Virus record (IMG/VR): IMGVR_UViG_3300003394_000004
Coordinates: 1 to 64,000 of that record
Reading direction: 5' to 3' (one strand)
Origin: an uncultured virus (IMG/VR IMGVR_UViG_3300003394_000004)
Lineage: Duplodnaviria; Heunggongvirae; Uroviricota; Caudoviricetes
Length of the DNA: 64,000 nucleotides
Part shown: in pieces, positions 17,579 to 46,000 of the stretch
Position numbering within the stretch: position 1 is the first letter of the stretch
Layout of the letters: each line of letters starts with the position of its first letter
Translations under genes and position numbers: made by a program
The notes under the pieces: generated by a model
Databases searched by the model: none
Told to the model about the DNA's origin: nothing
What the model saw: only the letters and a program-made list of their open reading frames with translations

Positions 17579-17646
17579 GATTAAATTATTTGATACAAAG
17601 ATAGTAAATAAAAAAAACCGAGTCAAATAAATAGGTTCTTTTTTTG

Positions 17647-17731
17647 CGGAAGATGAGGGACTCGAACCCACGCATCCTTTTAAGGATGTACGGTTTAGCA
17701 AACCGCTGCATTACCACTCTGCCAATCTTCC
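17647..17731 (-). tRNA. tRNA-Ser(GCT)
   Basis: Cloverleaf with long variable arm; anticodon arm GCGGT-TTGCTAA-ACCGT; GGTTCGAGTCC. Confidence 0.93.
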
Positions 17732-17766
17732 AAAAAAAAATCTTGGGTTGGTGTCCCAAGATTTTG

Positions 17767-17853
17767 CGGAGGCTTAGGGATTCGAACCCCAGGATGCCTT
17801 TCAACATCTTCAGTTTTCAAGACTGACGCAATCGACCGCTCTGCCAAACCTCC
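17767..17853 (-). tRNA. tRNA-Ser(TGA)
   Basis: TCAGT-CTTGAAA-ACTGA; long variable arm; GGTTCGAATCC. Confidence 0.93.
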
Positions 17854-27425: not shown

Positions 27426-27440
27426 ATTTTATATAATTTG

Positions 27441-27525
27441 TACCGATGGCCGGAGTCGAACCGGCACGGACCTTACAGTCCACAGGATTTTAAGTCCTGC
27501 GTGGCTACCTTTTCACCACATCGGC
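27441..27525 (-). tRNA. tRNA-Leu(TAA)
   Basis: CAGGA-CTTAAAA-TCCTG; long variable arm. Confidence 0.93.
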
Positions 27526-28658: not shown

Positions 28659-28732
28659 GCCCTTGTAGCTCAGCTGGATAGAGCAACGGTTTTCTAAACC
28701 GTAGGTCACAGGTTCGAGTCCTGTCGGGGGTA
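28659..28732 (+). tRNA. tRNA-Arg(TCT)
   Basis: ACGGT-TTTCTAA-ACCGT; canonical D and T arms. Confidence 0.95.
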
Positions 28733-28736
28733 CAAA

Positions 28737-33372: not shown

Positions 33373-33468
33373 ATGAAACTCGTAAATAAACAAATCGTGA
33401 AACATGTCATTCAATTCTGTCAGAATTGGTATCTTCGCGTATTTTCAAGTTCGGGTGTTATAAGTTAA
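33373..33468 (+). CDS. leader peptide 1 of tRNA array 1 (MKLVNKQIVKHVIQFCQNWYLRVFSSSGVIS)
   Basis: Read by eye; codons 2-24 encode only, and all of, the 12 amino acids of the downstream tRNAs; 3' end carries the antiterminator strand. Confidence 0.8.
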   Translation: MKLVNKQIVKHVIQFCQNWYLRVFSSSGVIS

Positions 33469-33500
33469 CACGTAGTAGCCTAAAAAAGGAAACCCGAACT
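33448..33500 (+). promoter_or_regulatory. antiterminator helix of attenuator 1
   Basis: AGTTCGGGT (33448-33456) is the exact reverse complement of ACCCGAACT (33492-33500), the terminator 5' arm. Confidence 0.8.
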
Positions 33501-33520
33501 CACAAGGTTCGGGTTTTTTT
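33490..33520 (+). terminator. intrinsic terminator (attenuator 1) before tRNA array 1
   Basis: AAACCCGAAC-TCACAAG-GTTCGGGTTT plus T tract. Confidence 0.9.
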
Positions 33521-33526
33521 GTTTTT

Positions 33527-33548
33527 AAGTTCTTTGACGTATTGGTAA
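33527..33548 (+). promoter_or_regulatory. boxA-like element, copy 1
   Basis: AAGTTCTTTGACGTATTGGTAA, identical to 40464-40485; core GTTCTTTGAC resembles rrn boxA. Confidence 0.7.
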
Positions 33549-33556
33549 CCAAAAAT

Positions 33557-33629
33557 GGGGTAGTGGCAGATGAGGTCATTGCGCCGGACTGAAAATCCGA
33601 AGGAACAGGTTCGATACCTGTCTACCCCA
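33557..33629 (+). tRNA. tRNA-Phe(GAA)
   Basis: CGGA-CTGAAAA-TCCG; acceptor GGGGTAG/CTACCCC. Confidence 0.9.
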
Positions 33630-33638
33630 CAAATACAT

Positions 33639-33715
33639 TGGTGATTAGCTCAGTTGGTTAGAGCACTACGCTGATACCGTAGGGGTCACAGGTTCAAGTC
33701 CTGTATCACCAACCA
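33639..33715 (+). tRNA. tRNA-Ile(GAT)
   Basis: CTACG-CTGATAC-CGTAG; encoded CCA. Confidence 0.93.
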
Positions 33716-33720
33716 TAAAT

Positions 33721-33791
33721 TACCCTTTCGTCTAACGGCAGGACGAGTGGTTTTGGTCCACTTAGTGGAGGTTCGAATCCTTCAGGGGTAA
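33721..33791 (+). tRNA. tRNA-Gln(TTG)
   Basis: AGTGG-TTTTGGT-CCACT. Confidence 0.92.
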
Positions 33792-33797
33792 CAATAT

Positions 33798-33871
33798 GAC
33801 CTTATAGCTCAATTGGCTAGAGCACCGTGCTTTTAACACGGGGGTTTCGGGTTCGAGTCCCGATGGGGTCA
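33798..33871 (+). tRNA. tRNA-Lys(TTT)
   Basis: CCGTG-CTTTTAA-CACGG. Confidence 0.93.
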
Positions 33872-33877
33872 CAATAT

Positions 33878-33950
33878 CTTTCCTTAGCTCAGTTGGAAGA
33901 GCACTTGGCTTACATCCAAGATGTCGTTGGTTCAAATCCAACAGGAAAGA
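33878..33950 (+). tRNA. tRNA-Val(TAC)
   Basis: CTTGG-CTTACAT-CCAAG. Confidence 0.92.
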
Positions 33951-33957
33951 CAAAAAT

Positions 33958-34039
33958 GCCAGTATCGCATAGCGGCAATTGCGGCGGATTGTAAACCCGC
34001 TCTCATTTGAGTTCGTAGGTTCGAGTCCTACTGCTGGCA
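33958..34039 (+). tRNA. tRNA-Tyr(GTA)
   Basis: GCGGA-TTGTAAA-CCCGC; long variable arm. Confidence 0.92.
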
Positions 34040-34101
34040 CAAAACTTATAATCCTCCAAAACTCACTTTTTTTACTAGATTTGGAGGATTATAGAATATA
34101 A

Positions 34102-34175
34102 GTCCATATGCCTGAGCGGTTCAAAGGGACAGTCTGCAAAACTGTTATTCGTTGGTTCGATTCCAACTATGGACT
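34102..34175 (+). tRNA. tRNA-Cys(GCA)
   Basis: ACAGT-CTGCAAA-ACTGT; U73. Confidence 0.92.
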
Positions 34176-34177
34176 CT

Positions 34178-34252
34178 GTGACTGTAGTTCAGTGGTAGAG
34201 CATCGGCTTGTGGTGCCGAGTGTCGTGGGTTCGAATCCCATCAGTCACCCCA
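34178..34252 (+). tRNA. tRNA-His(GTG)
   Basis: TCGGC-TTGTGGT-GCCGA; C73 and encoded CCA; position -1 is T. Confidence 0.92.
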
Positions 34253-34255
34253 AAT

Positions 34256-34330
34256 GGTTCCTTAGTTTAATTGGATAAAACATCTCGCTACGGACGAGAA
34301 GATGTGGGGGTTCGAGTCCCTCAGGAATCA
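34256..34330 (+). tRNA. tRNA-Arg(ACG)
   Basis: TCTCG-CTACGGA-CGAGA. Confidence 0.92.
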
Positions 34331-34337
34331 CAAATAC

Positions 34338-34408
34338 GTAAGTGTGGTGTAATGGTAGCATAAAGGTCTCCAAAACTTTTGGCGAGGGTTCGAGTCCTTC
34401 CACTTGCG
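34338..34408 (+). tRNA. tRNA-Trp(CCA)
   Basis: AAGGT-CTCCAAA-ACTTT; G73. Confidence 0.92.
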
Positions 34409-34414
34409 CAAAAT

Positions 34415-34496
34415 ACCAAAGTGGCGTAACGGTAGCCGCATTAGTCTTAGAAACTAATGTCTTAAAGACGTGTGGGTTCGACTCCCACCTTTGGTA
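34415..34496 (+). tRNA. tRNA-Leu(TAG)
   Basis: TTAGT-CTTAGAA-ACTAA; long variable arm. Confidence 0.92.
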
Positions 34497-34502
34497 CAAC
34501 AT

Positions 34503-34575
34503 TCCTCGGTAGCTCAGTGGTTAGAGCACTCGCCTGTTAAGCGATAGGTCATAGGTTCAAATCCTATCCGGGGAG
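34503..34575 (+). tRNA. tRNA-Asn(GTT)
   Basis: TCGC-CTGTTAA-GCGA; G73. Confidence 0.92.
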
Positions 34576-34621
34576 CAAAATATTTTTTTGTAATGTCAAA
34601 TACCTGTTGTATATTTGTAGT

Positions 34622-35276: not shown

Positions 35277-35354
35277 AGTCAGGTGGCGGAATGGATAGAC
35301 GCAACCACGTAAGTGGTCAAACCGGTGTTACAGGTTCGAATCCTGTCCTGACTA
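35277..35354 (+). ncRNA. tRNA-like RNA with a GTAA tetraloop in place of the anticodon loop
   Basis: Acceptor AGTCAGG/CCTGACT, Leu-like D arm, ACCAC-GTAA-GTGGT, T arm ACAGG-TTCGAAT-CCTGT. Confidence 0.75.
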
Positions 35355-35366
35355 CAAAAACATAAA

Positions 35367-38917: not shown

Positions 38918-38945
38918 TTCTTATTAGTGTCTTATACTTTTGATA

Positions 38946-40214
38946 ATGGAAAAATTATCAAATGTAGGGAACAATATTGTTGGCTCTGAAATTATTAAAA
39001 TCTCACAACAAATCAAAGAAATTGCTAAAACAAAACCAGTATCTAACCTAACCATAGGTGACTTTAATTCCAAACTATGGCCAATACCCTCAAAATTAAG
39101 AAAACACATTCAAGATGCTTACGAGTGGGATTTAACCAACTATCCAAACTCACAAGGAGAACTTGAATTAAGGGAATCTGTTTCCAAACACATTAAACAT
39201 CAGTTCAATGTTGATTATTCACCTGAAGAAATCTTAATTGGTGGTGGAGTTCGTCCATTGATTTATACGGTTTATAAAGCCACGGTAAATCCGAATGAAG
39301 AGGTGATTTATCCTGTACCATCTTGGAATAATAACCACTATTGTTTTTTACATAATGCACAAAAAGAAGAAATTGAATGTACACCTGAAAATTCATTTTT
39401 TCCAACCGTTGAAGATGTTGACGGTAGAATAAGTGATAAAACATCATTGGTTTGCATTTGTTCGCCACAAAATCCAACAGGTCGTGTAATTGACCCCGAA
39501 GTTCTGAAAGGTATTTGTGAGTTGATTGTGAGAGAAAATAAAATCAGGTCAACACAAGTAGGTTCAAGACCATTGTATTTGTTCTTTGACCAGATTTATT
39601 CTGACATCACCAAAGAAGGTTTGTTTATCCACCCATTAACTTTATGTCCTGAAATCAGAGATTATTTGATTTGTGCTGATGGTATTTCAAAATCATTAAA
39701 CGCAACTGGTGTTCGTGTTGGTTGGTTGTTTGGTCCAAAAGATATTATTGGAAAGATAACCGAAGTTTTGTCTCACATTGGAGCATGGGCACCAAAACCT
39801 GAACAACGAGCATTGGATGCGTACATCAGAGTAGATTATGAAGATTACATTTCTCACATAAACTATGTAACAAAATCGTATGAATTTATATCAGATAAAA
39901 TCTGTGACAAGTTGGAAGAATTGAAAAACAAAGGTCATAATGTTGATTACCAAAAACCTGATGGTGGAATTTATATTTCGGTTTACTTGGGTTATGTTCA
40001 TTCATTTTCATCCACAGAAGAGTATATTTCGTTCTTAATTAATACCTGTGGGTTGGGAATTGTTCCGTTTGAATATTTTGGTTCAAAGAGTAACAAAGGA
40101 TGGTTTAGAATCTCAATTGGTAATGTTGCCGAGTTAAATTTGGACTCAATTATTAAAACAATTGAAAAGTCTGTACAAAAATCGGTAAGTTATGTAAATT
40201 CTTTGGCGTTTTAA
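38946..40214 (+). CDS. PLP-dependent aminotransferase class I/II
   Basis: Y...QG..ELR, CSPQNPTG, FDQIY, GISKSL.ATG.RVGW, WFRIS. Confidence 0.9.
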   Translation: MEKLSNVGNNIVGSEIIKISQQIKEIAKTKPVSNLTIGDFNSKLWPIPSKLRKHIQDAYEWDLTNYPNSQGELELRESVSKHIKHQFNVDYSPEEILIGGGVRPLIYTVYKATVNPNEEVIYPVPSWNNNHYCFLHNAQKEEIECTPENSFFPTVEDVDGRISDKTSLVCICSPQNPTGRVIDPEVLKGICELIVRENKIRSTQVGSRPLYLFFDQIYSDITKEGLFIHPLTLCPEIRDYLICADGISKSLNATGVRVGWLFGPKDIIGKITEVLSHIGAWAPKPEQRALDAYIRVDYEDYISHINYVTKSYEFISDKICDKLEELKNKGHNVDYQKPDGGIYISVYLGYVHSFSSTEEYISFLINTCGLGIVPFEYFGSKSNKGWFRISIGNVAELNLDSIIKTIEKSVQKSVSYVNSLAF

Positions 40215-40271
40215 TTGACACTTTTTAAAAGTTTATTATATTTAATAAGAAATCAAATAATAATACATTCA

Positions 40272-40340
40272 ATGAAAACCATATTCATATTCGGCACACC
40301 AGCAACAGAGGCTGATACTTCCAAAGTGGAGATGGGATAA
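40272..40340 (+). CDS. leader peptide 2 of tRNA array 2 (MKTIFIFGTPATEADTSKVEMG)
   Basis: Read by eye; core GTPATEADT and two ATA codons match the downstream tRNAs; 3' end carries the antiterminator strand. Confidence 0.75.
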   Translation: MKTIFIFGTPATEADTSKVEMG

Positions 40341-40374
40341 TATTGTAAAAAAATATCTTACAAAAACCCATCTC
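40329..40374 (+). promoter_or_regulatory. antiterminator helix of attenuator 2
   Basis: GAGATGGG (40329-40336) is the exact reverse complement of CCCATCTC (40367-40374). Confidence 0.75.
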
Positions 40375-40393
40375 GAAAGGATGGGTTTTTTTT
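40362..40393 (+). terminator. intrinsic terminator (attenuator 2) before tRNA array 2
   Basis: AAAAACCCATC-TCGAAAG-GATGGGTTTTT plus T tract. Confidence 0.88.
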
Positions 40394-40400
40394 GTGTTTG

Positions 40401-40432
40401 TTTGGTAGTATTAAAAAAATGTATTAACTTTG
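40401..40432 (+). promoter_or_regulatory. Bacteroidota-type promoter between terminator 2 and array 2
   Basis: TTTG (40401-40404), 20-nt spacer, TAACTTTG (40425-40432). Confidence 0.65.
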
Positions 40433-40463
40433 TATTGTTGTTGAATAAGACAACAGAACAAAA

Positions 40464-40485
40464 AAGTTCTTTGACGTATTGGTAA
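40464..40485 (+). promoter_or_regulatory. boxA-like element, copy 2
   Basis: AAGTTCTTTGACGTATTGGTAA, identical to 33527-33548. Confidence 0.7.
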
Positions 40486-40498
40486 GAAAAAAATAATT

Positions 40499-40570
40499 GC
40501 TCGGTTCATCTATCGGTTAGGATGCCAGGTTTTCATCCTGGAAAGAGGGGTTCGACTCCCCTACCGAGTA
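40499..40570 (+). tRNA. tRNA-Glu(TTC)
   Basis: CCAGG-TTTTCAT-CCTGG. Confidence 0.92.
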
Positions 40571-40579
40571 CAAATAAAT

Positions 40580-40653
40580 CGCGGGTTGGTGTAATGGTAA
40601 CATAATGGGCTCATAACCCATAGTTCCGAGTTCGAGTCTCGGGTCCGCAACCA
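40580..40653 (+). tRNA. initiator tRNA-fMet(CAT)
   Basis: C1:A72 mismatch; GGG/CCC in the anticodon stem; encoded CCA. Confidence 0.9.
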
Positions 40654-40656
40654 ATG

Positions 40657-40738
40657 GATGTAACTTGGGTCGTGCCACATTGGCCACTTTTACATCAAGA
40701 GTCAGAAGGATAAGAGGTGGCCGTGACTACTCTGACTC
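40657..40738 (+). ncRNA. candidate kissing-loop RNA
   Basis: Stems GATGTAA/TTACATC and GAGTCAGA/TCTGACTC; loops carry complementary GGCCAC and GTGGCC. Confidence 0.55.
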
Positions 40739-40746
40739 GAAAAAAG

Positions 40747-40817
40747 CGAGTGTAGTATAAAGGCTATTACTCCAGCCTTCCAAGCTGGATATGGGAGTTC
40801 GATTCTCCCCACTCGCT
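40747..40817 (+). tRNA. tRNA-Gly(TCC)
   Basis: CCAGC-CTTCCAA-GCTGG; U73. Confidence 0.92.
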
Positions 40818-40822
40818 CAAAA

Positions 40823-40898
40823 GCGAGAGTAGCTCAGTCGGTAGAGCATCAGTTTACCAAACTGAGGGTCGCCAGTTCGAACCTGGTCTCTCGCTCCA
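40823..40898 (+). tRNA. tRNA-Gly(ACC)
   Basis: TCAGT-TTACCAA-ACTGA; G1-C72, C2-G71, U73 Gly identity; encoded CCA. Confidence 0.88.
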
Positions 40899-40900
40899 AA

Positions 40901-40959
40901 AGTAAATCTTAAAAAGGGCCCTTCCGTGTTTATCACGGCTTGTTGGGCCCGGGTTTACT
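40901..40959 (+). ncRNA. structured spacer hairpin
   Basis: Nested AGTAAATC/GGTTTACT, GGGCCC/GGGCCC and CCGTG/CACGG stems. Confidence 0.4.
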
Positions 40960-40966
40960 AACTTAC

Positions 40967-41038
40967 GGTCCTGTAGTTAATCGGCTATAATATTGCCCTG
41001 TCACGGCAAAGTGCCGGGTTCGATTCCCGGTGGGACCG
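40967..41038 (+). tRNA. tRNA-Asp(GTC)
   Basis: TTGCC-CTGTCAC-GGCAA; G73. Confidence 0.92.
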
Positions 41039-41049
41039 CAAAAATAAAA

Positions 41050-41119
41050 GGGCCTGATGTCAACGGCAGACCGTTTGATTTGCAATCAGAACGTATGGGT
41101 TCGATTCCCACAGTGTCCA
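41050..41119 (+). tRNA. tRNA-Ala(TGC), irregular acceptor stem
   Basis: TTTGA-TTTGCAA-TCAGA; G3.U70 retained. Confidence 0.75.
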
Positions 41120-41128
41120 CAAACAAAT

Positions 41129-41204
41129 AGCGTAGTAGAGGAGTCAGGTTTATCTCATCTGCTTTGGGAGCAGAGGCACGCTGGTTCGAATCCAGTCTAC
41201 GCTA
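41129..41204 (+). tRNA. tRNA-Pro(TGG)
   Basis: TCTGC-TTTGGGA-GCAGA; A1-U72 instead of the usual C1-G72. Confidence 0.88.
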
Positions 41205-41266
41205 CAATCGTTAAAAAAATATTTGACCAAATCTAATTTTAACGACAATCAATATATTTATTATAT

Positions 41267-41818
41267 ATGGTAGAAATAATTAAAAATTCTAAGACAAGGG
41301 CTGAAGCTATTAAAAAACTCTATGGTTTTGACAATGGAAAAACTCGAAAAAAATTTGAAAATTTCATTGTTGAAAATAAAATTGACGTTTCGCATTTAAG
41401 AAGTCGAGAAATAAAATACCAATCAGTTATTAAATTGTGTCCTGTTTGTGATATTCAATTTGAAACAAAAGTTGGAGGGAAAGAAGAAAGAACAACATGT
41501 TCTTATTCTTGTTCAAACACCTTTTTTAGAAGTGGTGAAAATAACCCAAATTGGGGAAATTTTGGTGATAGTCAAGAACGTAACGGTTATAGAAGAATTG
41601 GTTTTAATTATCACAAAAAAGAATGTATTATTTGTAGTGAAAATAAAATTGTGACTATCCATCATTATGACAATAATCACCAAAATAACGAACCAAAAAA
41701 CTTGGTACCATTATGTCCAACACATCATCAGTATGTTCATAGTAGATATCAAAATGAAATTCAACACATAGTTGACAATTATGTAAAAAACTTTGAAAAA
41801 AATATATTACCTTTGTAA
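41267..41818 (+). CDS. HNH endonuclease inside tRNA array 2
   Basis: CPVC..CSYSC, GENNPNW, CIIC..IHH.D.N..NN...NLVPLCPTHH..VH. Confidence 0.85.
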   Translation: MVEIIKNSKTRAEAIKKLYGFDNGKTRKKFENFIVENKIDVSHLRSREIKYQSVIKLCPVCDIQFETKVGGKEERTTCSYSCSNTFFRSGENNPNWGNFGDSQERNGYRRIGFNYHKKECIICSENKIVTIHHYDNNHQNNEPKNLVPLCPTHHQYVHSRYQNEIQHIVDNYVKNFEKNILPL

Positions 41819-41819
41819 C

Positions 41820-42107
41820 ATGAAAAACATATTAAAAGACCCCCGACTTTATTTTTCCTTATGGATTATTTTATCTATTATTCTTGCCACTATGTTAGGA
41901 GCTTGTAAACAGAAACCTTTGATTGAAAAAGGTGATGTAGTTGAAAAGTTCGTTATTGATTCAATGGTTCAATTGCCACCTCACAGCACAATTGAACTTG
42001 ACAGGAAGTACAAGTATTTCATGTCAGACAGCAGTGAGTTTACTTCTTTGAGGAAGTACAACATTGGTGATACCATCACTTATGTTTACAAAAAACAAGG
42101 AAAGTAA
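41820..42107 (+). CDS. putative lipoprotein or membrane protein
   Basis: Hydrophobic N-terminus ending in LGAC; TACCTTTG promoter at 41808-41815. Confidence 0.6.
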   Translation: MKNILKDPRLYFSLWIILSIILATMLGACKQKPLIEKGDVVEKFVIDSMVQLPPHSTIELDRKYKYFMSDSSEFTSLRKYNIGDTITYVYKKQGK

Positions 42108-42126
42108 TATATATTAAAACATAAAT

Positions 42127-42203
42127 GCCTGAATAGCTTTAATTGGTAGAGCACCTGACTTGTAATCAGGGGGTTGGCGGTTCGAGTCCGTCTTCAGGCT
42201 CCA
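42127..42203 (+). tRNA. tRNA-Thr(TGT)
   Basis: CCTGA-CTTGTAA-TCAGG; encoded CCA. Confidence 0.93.
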
Positions 42204-42216
42204 AAACACAATAATC

Positions 42217-42402
42217 ATGGACCCCAAGACTCAAATGACGCAGGAAGATTTTTTAACCGAATTGACAGAATTAAGTCAGTCACTTGGGTTGTATGGTGAA
42301 AATGACAACTTTGGTGTTGATGGAGTTTACATACATACCCAACCAGAAATGTACATATGCCCGTGGGATAATACTCAAGGGGATTGTACTCATTTCAACT
42401 AA
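42217..42402 (+). CDS. hypothetical protein
   Basis: ORF track; fills the gap between two tRNAs. Confidence 0.5.
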   Translation: MDPKTQMTQEDFLTELTELSQSLGLYGENDNFGVDGVYIHTQPEMYICPWDNTQGDCTHFN

Positions 42403-42407
42403 TATTT

Positions 42408-42481
42408 GGACGGGTAGCTCAACAGGTTAGAGCAGGATGCTTATATCATCAAGGTTGGGGGTTCAAGTCCCTTCTCGTCTA
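42408..42481 (+). tRNA. tRNA-Ile(TAT)
   Basis: GATG-CTTATAT-CATC; canonical D and T arms. Confidence 0.85.
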
Positions 42482-42495
42482 CTAAAATCATAACT

Positions 42496-42918
42496 ATGAA
42501 CACAGAATATAACGAATGGTATTGGAAACTTTACAGATGGGTAAGATGGGAACTACCCAACCAACACAAATACATTAAGTATGGAGTTCAGAACCTATAT
42601 AAATGGTTTTGGATAATATGGAAAGATAGGGATTGGGACCACCATTATGTTTTTCAGGTATTAAAATTCAAGTTAGAAAAACAAGCCAAACATCTTGTTA
42701 AATATGGTTCTCATGAAAGTTCTGAACGTGATGCTGAGTTAATGATGACTTGTGTTAGGTTAATTGATAAAATACAAAATGAATCATATTATGATGGGTT
42801 TTATGAGTTAGATAAACGGTCATCTGAAGCTCTTAAAATGGTAACAGATAAGCACAATAAAGCTAAACGTTTATTATTTAAAATTCTTGAACAAAAAATT
42901 GAACATTGGTGGGATTAA
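42496..42918 (+). CDS. conserved phage hypothetical protein
   Basis: W..IWKDRDWD..L.FKL..WWD. Confidence 0.7.
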   Translation: MNTEYNEWYWKLYRWVRWELPNQHKYIKYGVQNLYKWFWIIWKDRDWDHHYVFQVLKFKLEKQAKHLVKYGSHESSERDAELMMTCVRLIDKIQNESYYDGFYELDKRSSEALKMVTDKHNKAKRLLFKILEQKIEHWWD

Positions 42919-42947
42919 GAATTTTTTTATTATCTTTGTATAACAAT

Positions 42948-43024
42948 GGACCCTTAGCTCAGTTGGTCAGAGCGGCTGACTCATAATCAGTAGGTCGTAG
43001 GTTCAAGCCCTACAGGGTCCACCA
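42948..43024 (+). tRNA. tRNA-Ile2(CAT), lysidine type (Met not excluded)
   Basis: GCTGA-CTCATAA-TCAGT; GGACCCT acceptor resembles bacterial Ile2; encoded CCA. Confidence 0.8.
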
Positions 43025-43025
43025 A

Positions 43026-43211
43026 ATGAAACAAAAAATGTATAGACCAAAAGTAGACCGAGTAATCGGTGGTGTATGTGCTGGTATCGCATACCGTATG
43101 AATATTGACCCAATTTTTCTTCGTGTATTTTCCGTGGTATTACTTTTTTATCCATTTCCAATTGGTATAACATATTTGTTGTTATGGATGTTTATACCAA
43201 GTGGTGAATAA
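43026..43211 (+). CDS. pspC: PspC domain protein
   Basis: MYR...DRVIGGVCAGIA...IDP..LR..Y..LW..IP. Confidence 0.85.
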   Translation: MKQKMYRPKVDRVIGGVCAGIAYRMNIDPIFLRVFSVVLLFYPFPIGITYLLLWMFIPSGE

Positions 43212-43278
43212 AATTTAAAAAGACCTGATTTATATCAGGTTTTTTTGTATTTATTTACTAAACAATATATTTTTACTA

Positions 43279-43905
43279 ATGGATTGGGCAGATGTATTTA
43301 AAACTTTGATAACAGCGGTGGCTTCAGTTATAGTTGCGTTGGTGACTGCGGGTTATTTTAGAAAAACCCAAGACAAAAATAAAGAAAAGAAAAGTCGTGA
43401 AAAATTGGTGGAACAGATTCAAAGAGATGAATTAATCCACTTTACATTAAAAGAATTAAGACGAAAGTACATTACAGATAGAGTTTACATCATTCAATTT
43501 CATAATGGTGGAACTTTTTATACTCAAGCACCAATGCAAAAAGCATCTGTGACATATGAAAGATGTTCAGATGGATTAGAAAAAATTTCAGAAAAATTTC
43601 AAAATATTTTAATTTCAAATTATAATTGGTATTTAACAGAAACACTTGGTAACCGATTGTTTTATGTTGATGTTGATAATCAAATAAGTGATTTACCAAC
43701 CAAAAGTTTATTAAGACATTATGGAAACTACGCACACGCTGGTGTTCCAATTTATAATACCGATAAACATTTAATTGGTGTTTTATGTGTAAGTTGGGTG
43801 TTTTCTGATTTCCCAACATCAATTGCCAGTAATGGTGAGTTTACTGAAGAATTCAAAACTCAATTATATCAAGATGCCAATTCATTAAAACCTTATTTAT
43901 TATGA
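43279..43905 (+). CDS. N-terminal TM plus GAF-like domain protein (possible holin)
   Basis: Single TM; DRVYIIQFHNG..YE..GVPI..LIGVL. Confidence 0.55.
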   Translation: MDWADVFKTLITAVASVIVALVTAGYFRKTQDKNKEKKSREKLVEQIQRDELIHFTLKELRRKYITDRVYIIQFHNGGTFYTQAPMQKASVTYERCSDGLEKISEKFQNILISNYNWYLTETLGNRLFYVDVDNQISDLPTKSLLRHYGNYAHAGVPIYNTDKHLIGVLCVSWVFSDFPTSIASNGEFTEEFKTQLYQDANSLKPYLL

Positions 43906-45562: not shown

Positions 45563-45614
45563 TATAAAAATGATATAAAAGAAAAACCCATCCGTAAAGA
45601 TGGGTTTTTTTATT

Positions 45615-46000
45615 TGGTGGAGATGCGAGGTACTGCCCCCCGGTCTTGCTCGTCTTACCCAAGAGGTACTACATGTTTAGGTCAACATTTTCTAATGTTC
45701 CGAAATTCACAATTCCCTTATTTTATAGTGGTTTGGTTTACTGAGAACTAATCCTCCACTTGTTTCTTTTAAGATAGAAACTACACCTTTAAAAGACTTC
45801 TGTTCCTAGGTTGTATGTCTCCCGACCTGTTTTGTAATAGCGATTAGGCTACTACAGAAGCGTTTTCACGGATTAATCCGATAGTCGCCATTTTGTCTAA
45901 AACGTTTCCGTTTAATTTTTTGAACCAGTTTTTAATGAGTTATTTCAGCTCATACATGCACCCATTGACTAACTACGCCAATCGAATCTGTGTCATCCCC
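45615..46000 (-). ncRNA. ssrA: tmRNA
   Basis: 5' GGGGATGA..GATTCGA, 3' ..CATCTCCACCA with G3.U; tag ORF 45909-45844 reads GNVLDKMATIGLIRENASVVA*. Confidence 0.9.

What the first reader, a model, noticed from the sequence alone, without database searches (positions are those of the whole stretch)
40215..43024. Second attenuator with the complementary codon set in front of tRNA array 2
Seen: 22-codon ORF 40272-40340 (MKTIFIFGTPATEADTSKVEMG), antiterminator GAGATGGG complementary to the terminator arm CCCATCTC, and terminator 40362-40393. Downstream tRNAs are Glu, fMet, Gly x2, Asp, Ala, Pro, Thr, Ile(TAT) and Ile2(CAT). Codons 8-16 (GTPATEADT) use only G, T, P, A, E and D, and both Ile codons are ATA, the codon read by the two AUA decoders in this array. 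These are the amino acids missing from the sensing part of leader 1. The sequence is unrelated to leader 1 but the architecture is the same, so it is an internal replicate. Caveats: K, F, S and V codons are also present, and host-type promoters lie downstream of the terminator (40401-40432, 41808, about 42931), so attenuation may only add to basal expression.
Basis: partly seen in the sequence, partly recalled or inferred. Interest (0 to 1): 0.9.

Follow-up and report, generated by a model that had tools for sequence, protein, structure and literature searches.

The report
Codon-matched leader attenuator before phage tRNAs
A 22-codon mini-gene in front of a phage's block of tRNA genes spells out the amino acids those tRNAs carry and is wired to a stop-or-go RNA switch, so the virus probably makes more of its own tRNAs when translation runs short of them.

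Summary
ORF 40272-40340, an intrinsic terminator (40362-40393) and a competing antiterminator arm in the last codons are all present. I also find a fourth segment at codons 3-6 that can pair with the antiterminator arm, which gives a classical four-segment attenuator.

The decisive evidence is comparative. I examined 18 leader/terminator units in 10 related uncultured phage contigs. Every non-Met amino acid with a tRNA gene in the downstream array occurs in that array's own leader: 154 of 154. The same holds for 19 of 19 in the cultured Cellulophaga phage phi4:1. When tRNA genes move between arrays, the leader codons move with them (Pro, Gln, Glu, Ser, and the Arg and Ser codon boxes).

Residues in leader 2 that do not match the array lie in the pairing segments or the spacer. 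The central codons 8-16 match entirely.

Caveats:
- A conserved host-type promoter (40401-40432) lies between the terminator and tRNA-Glu, so attenuation probably adds to basal expression of array 2.
- Nothing has been tested experimentally.
- The ATA/Ile argument is not conserved in relatives.

Nine literature searches found no description of leader peptides in front of tRNA arrays. I class this as a new variant of ribosome-mediated attenuation. Interest is high.

The parts
40215..40244 (+). Promoter-like site for the leader transcript (-33/-35-like hexamer, then a -7/-10-like box)
   Evidence: Best sigma-70-type match of the 13-kb scan, 11 of 12. Both elements are conserved at the same place in L122, L118, L153 and L126. 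Function is inferred.
40272..40340 (+). Leader ORF 2 (22 codons plus TAA)
   Evidence: The ORF is kept open in 5 distinct homologues at 67-100% identity of the neighbouring aminotransferase.
40278..40289 (+). Segment 1 (codons 3-6); can pair with segment 2
   Evidence: Duplex energy -8.9 kcal/mol in the window and -8.9 to -12.7 in the homologues. It contains one of the two Phe codons (codon 5) that do not match the array; the other (codon 7) lies just 3' of it, before the sensing codons. Inferred.
40293..40319 (+). Sensing codons 8-16 (Gly Thr Pro Ala Thr Glu Ala Asp Thr)
   Evidence: All nine residues have tRNA genes in array 2. This is the only such run among 466 small ORFs. In the middle segment, codons 8-17, 9 of 10 residues are in the set.
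40329..40337 (+). Segment 2, the antiterminator arm, in the last three codons next to the stop codon
   Evidence: Pairs with 40367-40374 at -11.2 kcal/mol; 0 of 200 shuffles are as good. It is used in the minimum-free-energy fold.
40344..40363 (+). Small inner hairpin in the loop of the antiterminator
40362..40393 (+). Intrinsic terminator (segments 3 and 4 plus T-tract 40386-40393)
   Evidence: 12 pairs; -13.5 kcal/mol.
40401..40432 (+). Internal host-type promoter between the terminator and the tRNAs
   Evidence: Pattern match (16 sites against 6.7 expected). Conserved in L122, L118, L153 and L126. The consensus motif is recalled knowledge of Bacteroidota promoters.
40464..40485 (+). 22-base box just 5' of the first tRNA; an identical copy lies at 33527-33548 before array 1
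   Evidence: Exactly 2 copies in the 117.6-kb record with up to 3 mismatches allowed. Variants precede the first tRNA in most related units. Function unknown.
40499..43024 (+). tRNA array 2: Glu, Met(cat), Gly x2, Asp, weak Ala, Pro, Thr, Ile(tat), Met(cat), interrupted by small ORFs
43216..43247 (+). Terminator-like hairpin after the PspC-domain ORF; likely end of the unit
33373..33520 (+). Leader 1 (ORF 33373-33468) and its terminator (33486-33520) before array 1 (33557-34576); same architecture, used for comparison

Best explanation
This is a ribosome-mediated (leader-peptide) transcription attenuator that gauges how well the codons served by the downstream phage tRNA genes are being decoded.

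Proposed sequence of events:
1. A transcript starts at the promoter-like site near 40215-40244 and the 22-codon leader is translated.
2. If decoding of the central codons (Gly, Thr, Pro, Ala, Glu, Asp; codons 8-16) is fast, the ribosome reaches the stop codon and covers segment 2 (40329-40337). Segments 3 and 4 then form the terminator, and transcription ends at 40386-40393.
3. If the ribosome lingers on any central codon, segment 1 cannot hold segment 2. Segment 2 pairs with segment 3, the terminator does not form, and RNA polymerase reads on into tRNA array 2.
4. Without translation, segments 1 and 2 pair and the terminator forms.

The result is negative feedback on the supply of exactly those tRNAs. 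For array 2 this adds to expression from an internal promoter (40401-40432).

Shown: the sequence elements, their alternative pairings in silico, and the match and co-variation between leader codons and array content across phages.

Inferred: translation of the ORF, the stalling, and the regulatory outcome.
For: (1) Anatomy. The ORF, terminator and antiterminator are present. The four segments have energies 1:2 -8.9, 2:3 -11.2 and 3:4 -13.5 kcal/mol.

(2) Same architecture in 18 of 18 units. The arm complementary to the terminator lies in the last codons or over the stop codon in 17 of 18. The exception is G002-A.

(3) Completeness. In 18 units, 154 of 154 non-Met amino acids with a tRNA gene in the array occur in the array's own leader. 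Among amino acids without such a gene, 85 of 188 occur. With 11 representatives the figures are 92/92 against 57/117.

(4) Specificity. Each of 15 leaders from genomes with two or three units matches its own array better than the other array(s). Shuffling arrays among 11 leaders gave a mean of 147.7 and a maximum of 219 in-set residues against 233 of 323 observed; 0 of 20000 shuffles reached the observed value.

(5) Position. In the middle segments 233 of 256 residues are in the set, against 138 of 244 elsewhere. Of the six mismatching residues of leader 2, one sits at codon 2, one in segment 1 (Phe5), one just 3' of it (Phe7), and three in the codons (17-19) just 5' of segment 2.

(6) Co-variation.
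- A Ser(tga) gene inserted in array 1 of L122 coincides with a Gln-to-Ser (TCG) change in its leader.
- Pro heads array A in G001 and G002, whose leaders have a Pro codon. In G003 Pro heads array C (three Pro codons), and leader A has none.
- Gln and Glu codons likewise follow their genes.
- Central Arg codons are CGY where the array has Arg(acg) and AGA where it has Arg(tct).
- In G003 the leader before Ser(tga) uses 4 of 4 TCN codons, and the leader before Ser(gct) uses AGT in its central part.

(7) Three-way compensatory change in L126. The same two positions change in segment 2 and segment 3, and one of them also changes in segment 4.

(8) An independent phage group. Cellulophaga phages phi4:1 and phi17:2 have three such units each, with 19 of 19 amino acids covered. 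The T-tract ends about 6 bases before the first tRNA, so the tRNAs can only be reached through the terminator.

(9) Negative controls. The same pipeline found no units in four other phages with tRNA arrays.
Against: - A conserved, good host-type promoter (40401-40432) lies between the terminator and tRNA-Glu, so array 2 can be transcribed without passing the attenuator. 11-12 of 18 units have such a promoter (read).
- Each amino acid is represented by only one to three codons, not the runs typical of classical attenuators, so sensitivity is uncertain.
- In leader 2, 6 of 21 residues are outside the set.
- Under strict wobble rules, only 77 of 149 Leu/Arg/Ser/Ile codons of whole leaders are read by their own array. 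Many of the misses are at codon 2, in the pairing segments, or are CTY codons facing Leu(tag).
- The 2:3 pairing beats shuffles at p <= 0.05 in 12 of 18 units, not in the other 6. The 1:2 pairing in the window has a mismatch.
- The tRNA-Ala of array 2 is a borderline hit, although the leader has two Ala codons.
- Related loci L127 and L134 show tRNAs with no unit in the visible sequence. The four singleton or paired tRNAs of the window have none.
- There is no direct evidence of translation, termination or read-through. Contigs from RNA libraries are ambiguous and may stem from DNA.
- The units are related by descent, so the Fisher p-values overstate independence.
Confidence: 0.72

Rival explanations
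1. The hairpin is simply the constitutive terminator of the aminotransferase gene (38940-40214), and the small ORF is a chance reading frame.
For: The terminator follows the aminotransferase gene by about 150 bases. A similar terminator sequence closes another gene at 45585-45611 with no leader. A contig from an RNA library runs from the aminotransferase gene into the ORF (X2 record 9).
Against: The same kind of unit stands before arrays that follow no aminotransferase gene: leader 1, units A/B/C of G001-G005, and phi4:1. The ORF stays open in diverged homologues. Its central run is unique among 466 small ORFs. The completeness of 154/154 and the co-variation with array content cannot arise from a chance frame.
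Confidence: 0.03
2. The leader is a real, translated sensor of decoding capacity, but its output is not extra tRNA transcription by read-through. For array 2, the internal promoter would make all the tRNA. The attenuator would then control something else, such as interference with that promoter, stability or processing of the precursor, or insulation from upstream transcription.
For: An internal promoter is conserved in 11-12 of 18 units. A conserved 22-base box of unknown role lies between the promoter and the first tRNA.
Against: Six freshwater units, including leader 1, and all three phi4:1 units have no room or no motif for an internal promoter. There the tRNAs can only be reached through the terminator. 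The simplest common function is therefore control of read-through.
Confidence: 0.15
3. The small ORFs encode micro-proteins with a function of their own, and the match to the tRNA sets is a by-product, for example of local codon usage.
For: One of them is annotated as a hypothetical protein in phi4:1 and phi17:2.
Against: The peptide sequences are unrelated between unit types, while architecture and position are constant. Two or three leaders in one genome split the amino acids exactly as the arrays do, which genome-wide codon usage cannot produce. The last codons are fixed by RNA pairing.
Confidence: 0.03

Closest known systems
Multivalent leader-peptide attenuators of amino-acid operons in Enterobacteria (ilvGMEDA: Leu/Val/Ile; thr: Thr/Ile; also trp, his, leu, pheA). 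Recalled knowledge, not tested here by any search.
   Same: A short translated leader, regulatory codons, and four RNA segments that form either a 1:2 plus 3:4 (terminator) fold or a 2:3 (antiterminator) fold. The stop codon sits next to segment 2. Stalling gives read-through.
   Different: The regulated genes are tRNA genes of a phage, not biosynthetic enzymes. The leader lists 6-13 different amino acids with one to three codons each instead of runs of one to three amino acids. The sensing codons lie in the loop between segments 1 and 2 rather than inside segment 1. There is no sequence similarity: no Rfam leader family matched. The likely host is from Bacteroidota, not Proteobacteria.
pheST attenuator (pheM leader) of E. 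coli. Recalled knowledge.
   Same: Leader-peptide attenuation applied to a gene of the translation apparatus, giving feedback on charged-tRNA supply.
   Different: It controls a synthetase for a single amino acid. It is not a tRNA array and not viral.
T-box riboswitches
   Same: Terminator/antiterminator switches that respond to the state of a specific tRNA and control translation-related genes.
   Different: T-boxes bind uncharged tRNA directly and need no ORF. No T-box match was found at gathering threshold in the window, or at E <= 1 in 40200-43300. Here an ORF with matched codons is the conserved feature.
Phage tRNA gene arrays in general (T4, T5, Vequintavirinae, crAss-like, huge phages)
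   Same: Clusters of tRNA genes interspersed with small ORFs and homing-endonuclease-like genes.
   Different: By the same pipeline, no leader/terminator units were found in the four other phages examined. No paper in nine searches describes leader peptides before tRNA arrays (listings and abstracts seen, plus one passage read).

Membership tests
Leader-peptide (ribosome-mediated) transcription attenuator | Short ORF with a start codon close behind a promoter and ahead of the regulated genes | tested here: met
   ORF 40272-40340. A promoter-like site at 40215-40244 is conserved in homologues. Promoter activity was not tested.
Leader-peptide (ribosome-mediated) transcription attenuator | Regulatory codons that correspond to the product of the regulated genes | tested here: met
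   Codons 8-16 all have tRNA genes in array 2. Completeness is 154/154 across 18 units and 19/19 in phi4:1.
Leader-peptide (ribosome-mediated) transcription attenuator | Intrinsic terminator between the leader and the regulated genes | tested here: met
   40362-40393, 12-pair stem plus T-tract.
Leader-peptide (ribosome-mediated) transcription attenuator | Antiterminator pairing (2:3) mutually exclusive with the terminator, with segment 2 within reach of a ribosome at the stop codon | tested here: met
   40329-40337 pairs with 40367-40374 at -11.2 kcal/mol, 0/200 shuffles as good. Compensatory change in L126. In silico only.
Leader-peptide (ribosome-mediated) transcription attenuator | Segment 1 able to sequester segment 2 when the leader is not translated | tested here: inconclusive
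   40278-40289 pairs with the segment-2 region at -8.9 kcal/mol with one mismatch; -10.7 to -12.7 in L122, L153 and L126. No shuffle control was run for this pairing.
Leader-peptide (ribosome-mediated) transcription attenuator | Regulated genes depend on read-through (no promoter behind the terminator) | tested here: not met
   For array 2 a conserved host-type promoter lies at 40401-40432. The feature is met for leader 1 and for phi4:1.
Leader-peptide (ribosome-mediated) transcription attenuator | Read-through depends on leader translation and on supply of the cognate aminoacyl-tRNAs | not testable with these tools
   Needs reporter, Term-seq or ribosome-profiling experiments. Contigs from RNA libraries cannot decide.
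Curated Rfam leader families (His, Leu, Thr, Trp leaders) and T-box | Match to the family covariance model | tested here: not met
   No such match at gathering threshold in the window, nor at E <= 1 in 40200-43300.

The most novel reading that the evidence does not exclude
Phages of Bacteroidota carry a programmable, many-input supply sensor. Each tRNA array is prefaced by a leader whose codon list is co-edited as tRNA genes come and go. Loss of any of those decoders, whether by decay of host tRNAs after infection or by host anticodon-nuclease defences, switches on exactly the replacement genes. The leaders would then also act as a built-in legend. They would tell which codons an ambiguous tRNA reads, for example ATA codons in the leader before an array whose only candidate is a CAT tRNA, as in G003-B. 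They would also imply that transcription and translation are coupled in these hosts.
Probability: 0.3. Interest if true: 0.95.

Novelty: new variant of a known kind. Interest (0 to 1): 0.9.

Why it matters
How phages regulate their own tRNA genes is essentially unknown. Here the sequence alone points to demand-driven control.
- It would extend leader-peptide attenuation from amino-acid biosynthesis to tRNA genes, from one to three amino acids to as many as 13, and from Proteobacteria to phages of Bacteroidota.
- It offers a rule that can be checked in any genome: every tRNA in the array has its codon in the leader.
- It is directly testable in a cultured system, Cellulophaga baltica with phage phi4:1 or phi17:2.
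- It gives a natural design for multi-input translational sensors.
- It provides a way to assign transcription units and decoding identities in phage tRNA arrays.

Tried and rejected
- DNA similarity to 50,697 phage records found only tRNA-sized matches and no close relative. A protein search with the aminotransferase found only matches under 60% identity (best listed 28%).
- The 16-base box pattern hit 111 stretches of viral contigs. I did not analyse these loci beyond noting that several come from the same contigs as the aminotransferase loci. Most are probably chance matches.
- ARAGORN at a relaxed threshold gave much noise and a few plausible extra tRNAs: Lys in G003-C/L144, Ser(tga) in L136, Ala in L153. 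I kept them out of the counts.
- The Rfam listing of the relatives was cut before the weak tRNA hits.
- The MAFFT alignment of the five leader-2 homologues (A2) misplaced the terminator arm of L126, so I made no formal pair count. The compensatory changes are read directly.
- Aligning the three CAT tRNAs with the Ile tRNAs did not settle which is Ile2.
- phi17:2 seemed to lack tRNA-Lys by its annotation, but ARAGORN finds it, so there is no natural experiment there.
- Metatranscriptome contigs. One 168-base contig (X1, 3 differences) covers 40262-40429 across the terminator. Contigs of two studies (X2, X3) both stop at 40336. Parts without cover and these ends cannot show starts, ends or regulation, and DNA may be present in such libraries.
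- Earlier notes of this scan: none for this genome.
- No unit was found in crAss-like cr111_1, Erwinia phage pEp_SNUABM_01, E. coli phage PHB05 or uncultured phage LR756501.


Full report
**Setting.** The window is the first 64 kb of a 117.6-kb viral record, estimated 39% complete. It is AT-rich. ARAGORN finds 28 tRNA genes. Rfam finds 29 tRNA matches and a tmRNA. Two large same-strand arrays stand out:
- Array 1 at 33557-34576: Phe, Ile, Gln, Lys, Val, Tyr, Cys, His, Arg, Trp, Leu, Asn.
- Array 2 at 40499-43024: Glu, Met(cat), Gly x2, Asp, a borderline Ala, Pro, Thr, Ile(tat), Met(cat).

Array 2 is broken up by small ORFs, one weakly HNH-like. The gene before the finding is a class I/II aminotransferase. 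A promoter pattern of the kind I recall for Bacteroidota is enriched in the window: 16 sites against 6.7 expected, with 0 of 100 shuffles reaching 16.

**The observation.**
- The 22-codon ORF lies at 40272-40340.
- The terminator lies at 40362-40393.
- An 8-base arm at 40329-40336, in the last codons, is complementary to the terminator's 5' arm at 40367-40374.
- The free-energy minimum of 40250-40400 uses this antiterminator pairing. The same is true of leader 1.
- Codons 8-16 use only the six amino acids Gly, Thr, Pro, Ala, Glu and Asp. Among 466 small ATG ORFs of the window, this is the only ORF with such a run. Leader 1 is the only one with a run covering all 12 amino acids of array 1.
- Leaving Ile aside, leader 1 has 22 residues of set 1 and 1 of set 2. 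Leader 2 has 5 and 13 (Fisher p = 5.7e-6).

**A fourth segment.** Duplex folding shows that codons 3-6 (40278-40289) can pair with the antiterminator arm: -8.9 kcal/mol here and up to -12.7 in homologues. That gives the classical four segments: 1:2, 2:3 and 3:4.

All 18 units examined have the terminator-complementary arm. It lies in the last codons or over the stop codon in 17 of them. The 2:3 pairing beats shuffles (p <= 0.05) in 12 of 18.

The six residues of leader 2 outside the array set are accounted for as follows:
- Lys at codon 2.
- Phe at codon 5 in segment 1, and Phe at codon 7 just 3' of it.
- Ser and Lys at codons 17-18, which a stalled ribosome's leading edge would overlap.
- Val at codon 19, at the edge of segment 2.

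Over all units, 233 of 256 residues are in the set in the middle segments, against 138 of 244 elsewhere.

**Relatives.** The aminotransferase retrieved 41 viral loci at 50-100% identity, of which 27 hold tRNAs.
- I dropped exact duplicates: L117, L131 and L139 (identical to the window), and L120, L128, L135, L137 and L141.
- I also dropped the 14 loci without tRNAs.
- I extended five contigs.
- Leader 2 has homologues in L122, L118, L153 and L126.
- In L126 two positions change together in segments 2 and 3, and one of them also changes in segment 4. This supports both alternative helices.
- Other contigs carry unrelated leaders of the same build before differently composed arrays (units A, B and C of G001-G005).

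**The rule.** In 18 units from 10 contigs, every non-Met amino acid with a tRNA gene between a terminator and the next unit occurs in that unit's leader: 154 of 154. Amino acids without such a gene occur in 85 of 188 cases.
- With 11 representatives the figures are 92/92 and 57/117.
- Each of 15 leaders in multi-unit genomes fits its own array best. The margin is narrow for G003-B (14 against 12 of 24).
- No shuffle of arrays among leaders reaches the observed total (0 of 20000).
- The units are related by descent, so these p-values are descriptive.

**Co-variation.** Several tRNA genes sit in different arrays in different contigs, and the leader codons follow them.
- L122 has a Ser(tga) gene inserted in array 1, and a Ser codon replaces a Gln codon in its leader.
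- Pro, Gln, Glu and Asn codons sit in whichever leader precedes the array that holds the gene.
- L126 has neither a Pro codon nor a visible tRNA-Pro, but its contig ends 2.7 kb after the last tRNA.
- Central Arg codons follow the Arg anticodon present.
- In G003 the two Ser codon boxes are split between leaders B and C as the two Ser tRNAs are.

Against this, over whole leaders and under strict wobble only 77 of 149 Leu/Arg/Ser/Ile codons are read by their own array. Also, the window's two ATA codons are not conserved as ATA in L122 and L153.

**A second phage group.** Cultured Cellulophaga phages phi4:1 and phi17:2 have three units each. One leader is annotated as a hypothetical protein and two are unannotated. 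They cover 6/6, 8/8 and 5/5 amino acids of their arrays. Arg codons again match the Arg anticodon. The T-tract ends about 6 bases before the first tRNA. Four other phages gave no units with the same pipeline. Loci L127 and L134 and the window's isolated tRNAs also have none.

**Mechanism and limits.** The simplest reading is negative feedback. Slow decoding of any listed codon keeps the ribosome off segment 2, the antiterminator forms, and the array is transcribed.

For array 2 a conserved promoter lies behind the terminator, so attenuation can only add to basal expression. Leader 1 and the Cellulophaga units lack such a promoter.

Contigs from RNA libraries cover the leader and, in one case, bridge the terminator, but they cannot show ends or regulation. 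No known RNA family matches.

Nine literature searches found no description of leader peptides before tRNA arrays (I saw listings and abstracts, plus one passage). Older subscription papers are not covered by that library.

Noticed in passing
window 33527-33548 and 40464-40485: An identical 22-base box lies just 5' of the first tRNA of both arrays. These are the only two copies in the 117.6-kb record. Variants precede the first tRNA in most related units, downstream of both the terminator and the internal promoter. Its role is unknown: a processing signal, a protein site or a special promoter.
   Followed up: partly
window 45615-46000 (-): Phage-encoded tmRNA (Rfam 63.7 bits). Relatives L122, L125 and L119 have it too. 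A terminator at 45585-45611 resembles the one at 40362-40393 (80% identity over 53 bases).
   Followed up: no
window 40654-40745 and 40899-40966: Two GC-richer stretches between tRNAs of array 2 have no tRNA or Rfam match. At a comparable place in L122 (8188-8250) and L118 (8823-8885), Rfam finds the 'freshwater-1' RNA motif (73.8 bits).
   Followed up: no
window 35277-35355; L118 2634-2705; L151 3539: A tRNA-like gene with an irregular anticodon loop lies in the window. Relatives carry tRNAs with anticodons cta and tta, which are possible suppressor tRNAs.
   Followed up: no
window 41050-41119: The tRNA-Ala of array 2 is a borderline hit (29.5 bits against a threshold of 29) that ARAGORN does not call. 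L118 has a strong Ala(tgc) at the same place. It may be a decaying gene, yet the leader keeps two Ala codons.
   Followed up: partly
L163 (Cellulophaga phage phi4:1) 2566-2634, 3490-3609, 5272-5370: Three leader/terminator units lie inside the tRNA region of a cultured phage. The middle one is annotated as hypothetical protein gp075 with a non-ATG start, and the other two are unannotated. The first leader's ATG lies a few bases after the promoter-like box, so the mRNA may be nearly leaderless.
   Followed up: partly
G003-B unit (L160, reverse strand): The leader has two ATA codons although the array shows no Ile tRNA, only a CAT tRNA. The leader may indicate that this CAT tRNA is an ATA-reading Ile2.
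   Followed up: no
window 40336: Contigs from RNA libraries of two different studies (X2 record 9, X3 record 16) both end at 40336, the last base of the antiterminator arm. This is at most a weak hint of an RNA end or an assembly break.
   Followed up: no
window 17646-17853 (-), 27440-27525 (-), 28659-28733 (+): The isolated tRNAs (Ser-Ser pair, Leu(taa), Arg(tct)) have no leader unit. They sit directly behind genes or a promoter-like box. Their amino acids or codon boxes are the ones missing from the central parts of both leaders.
   Followed up: yes
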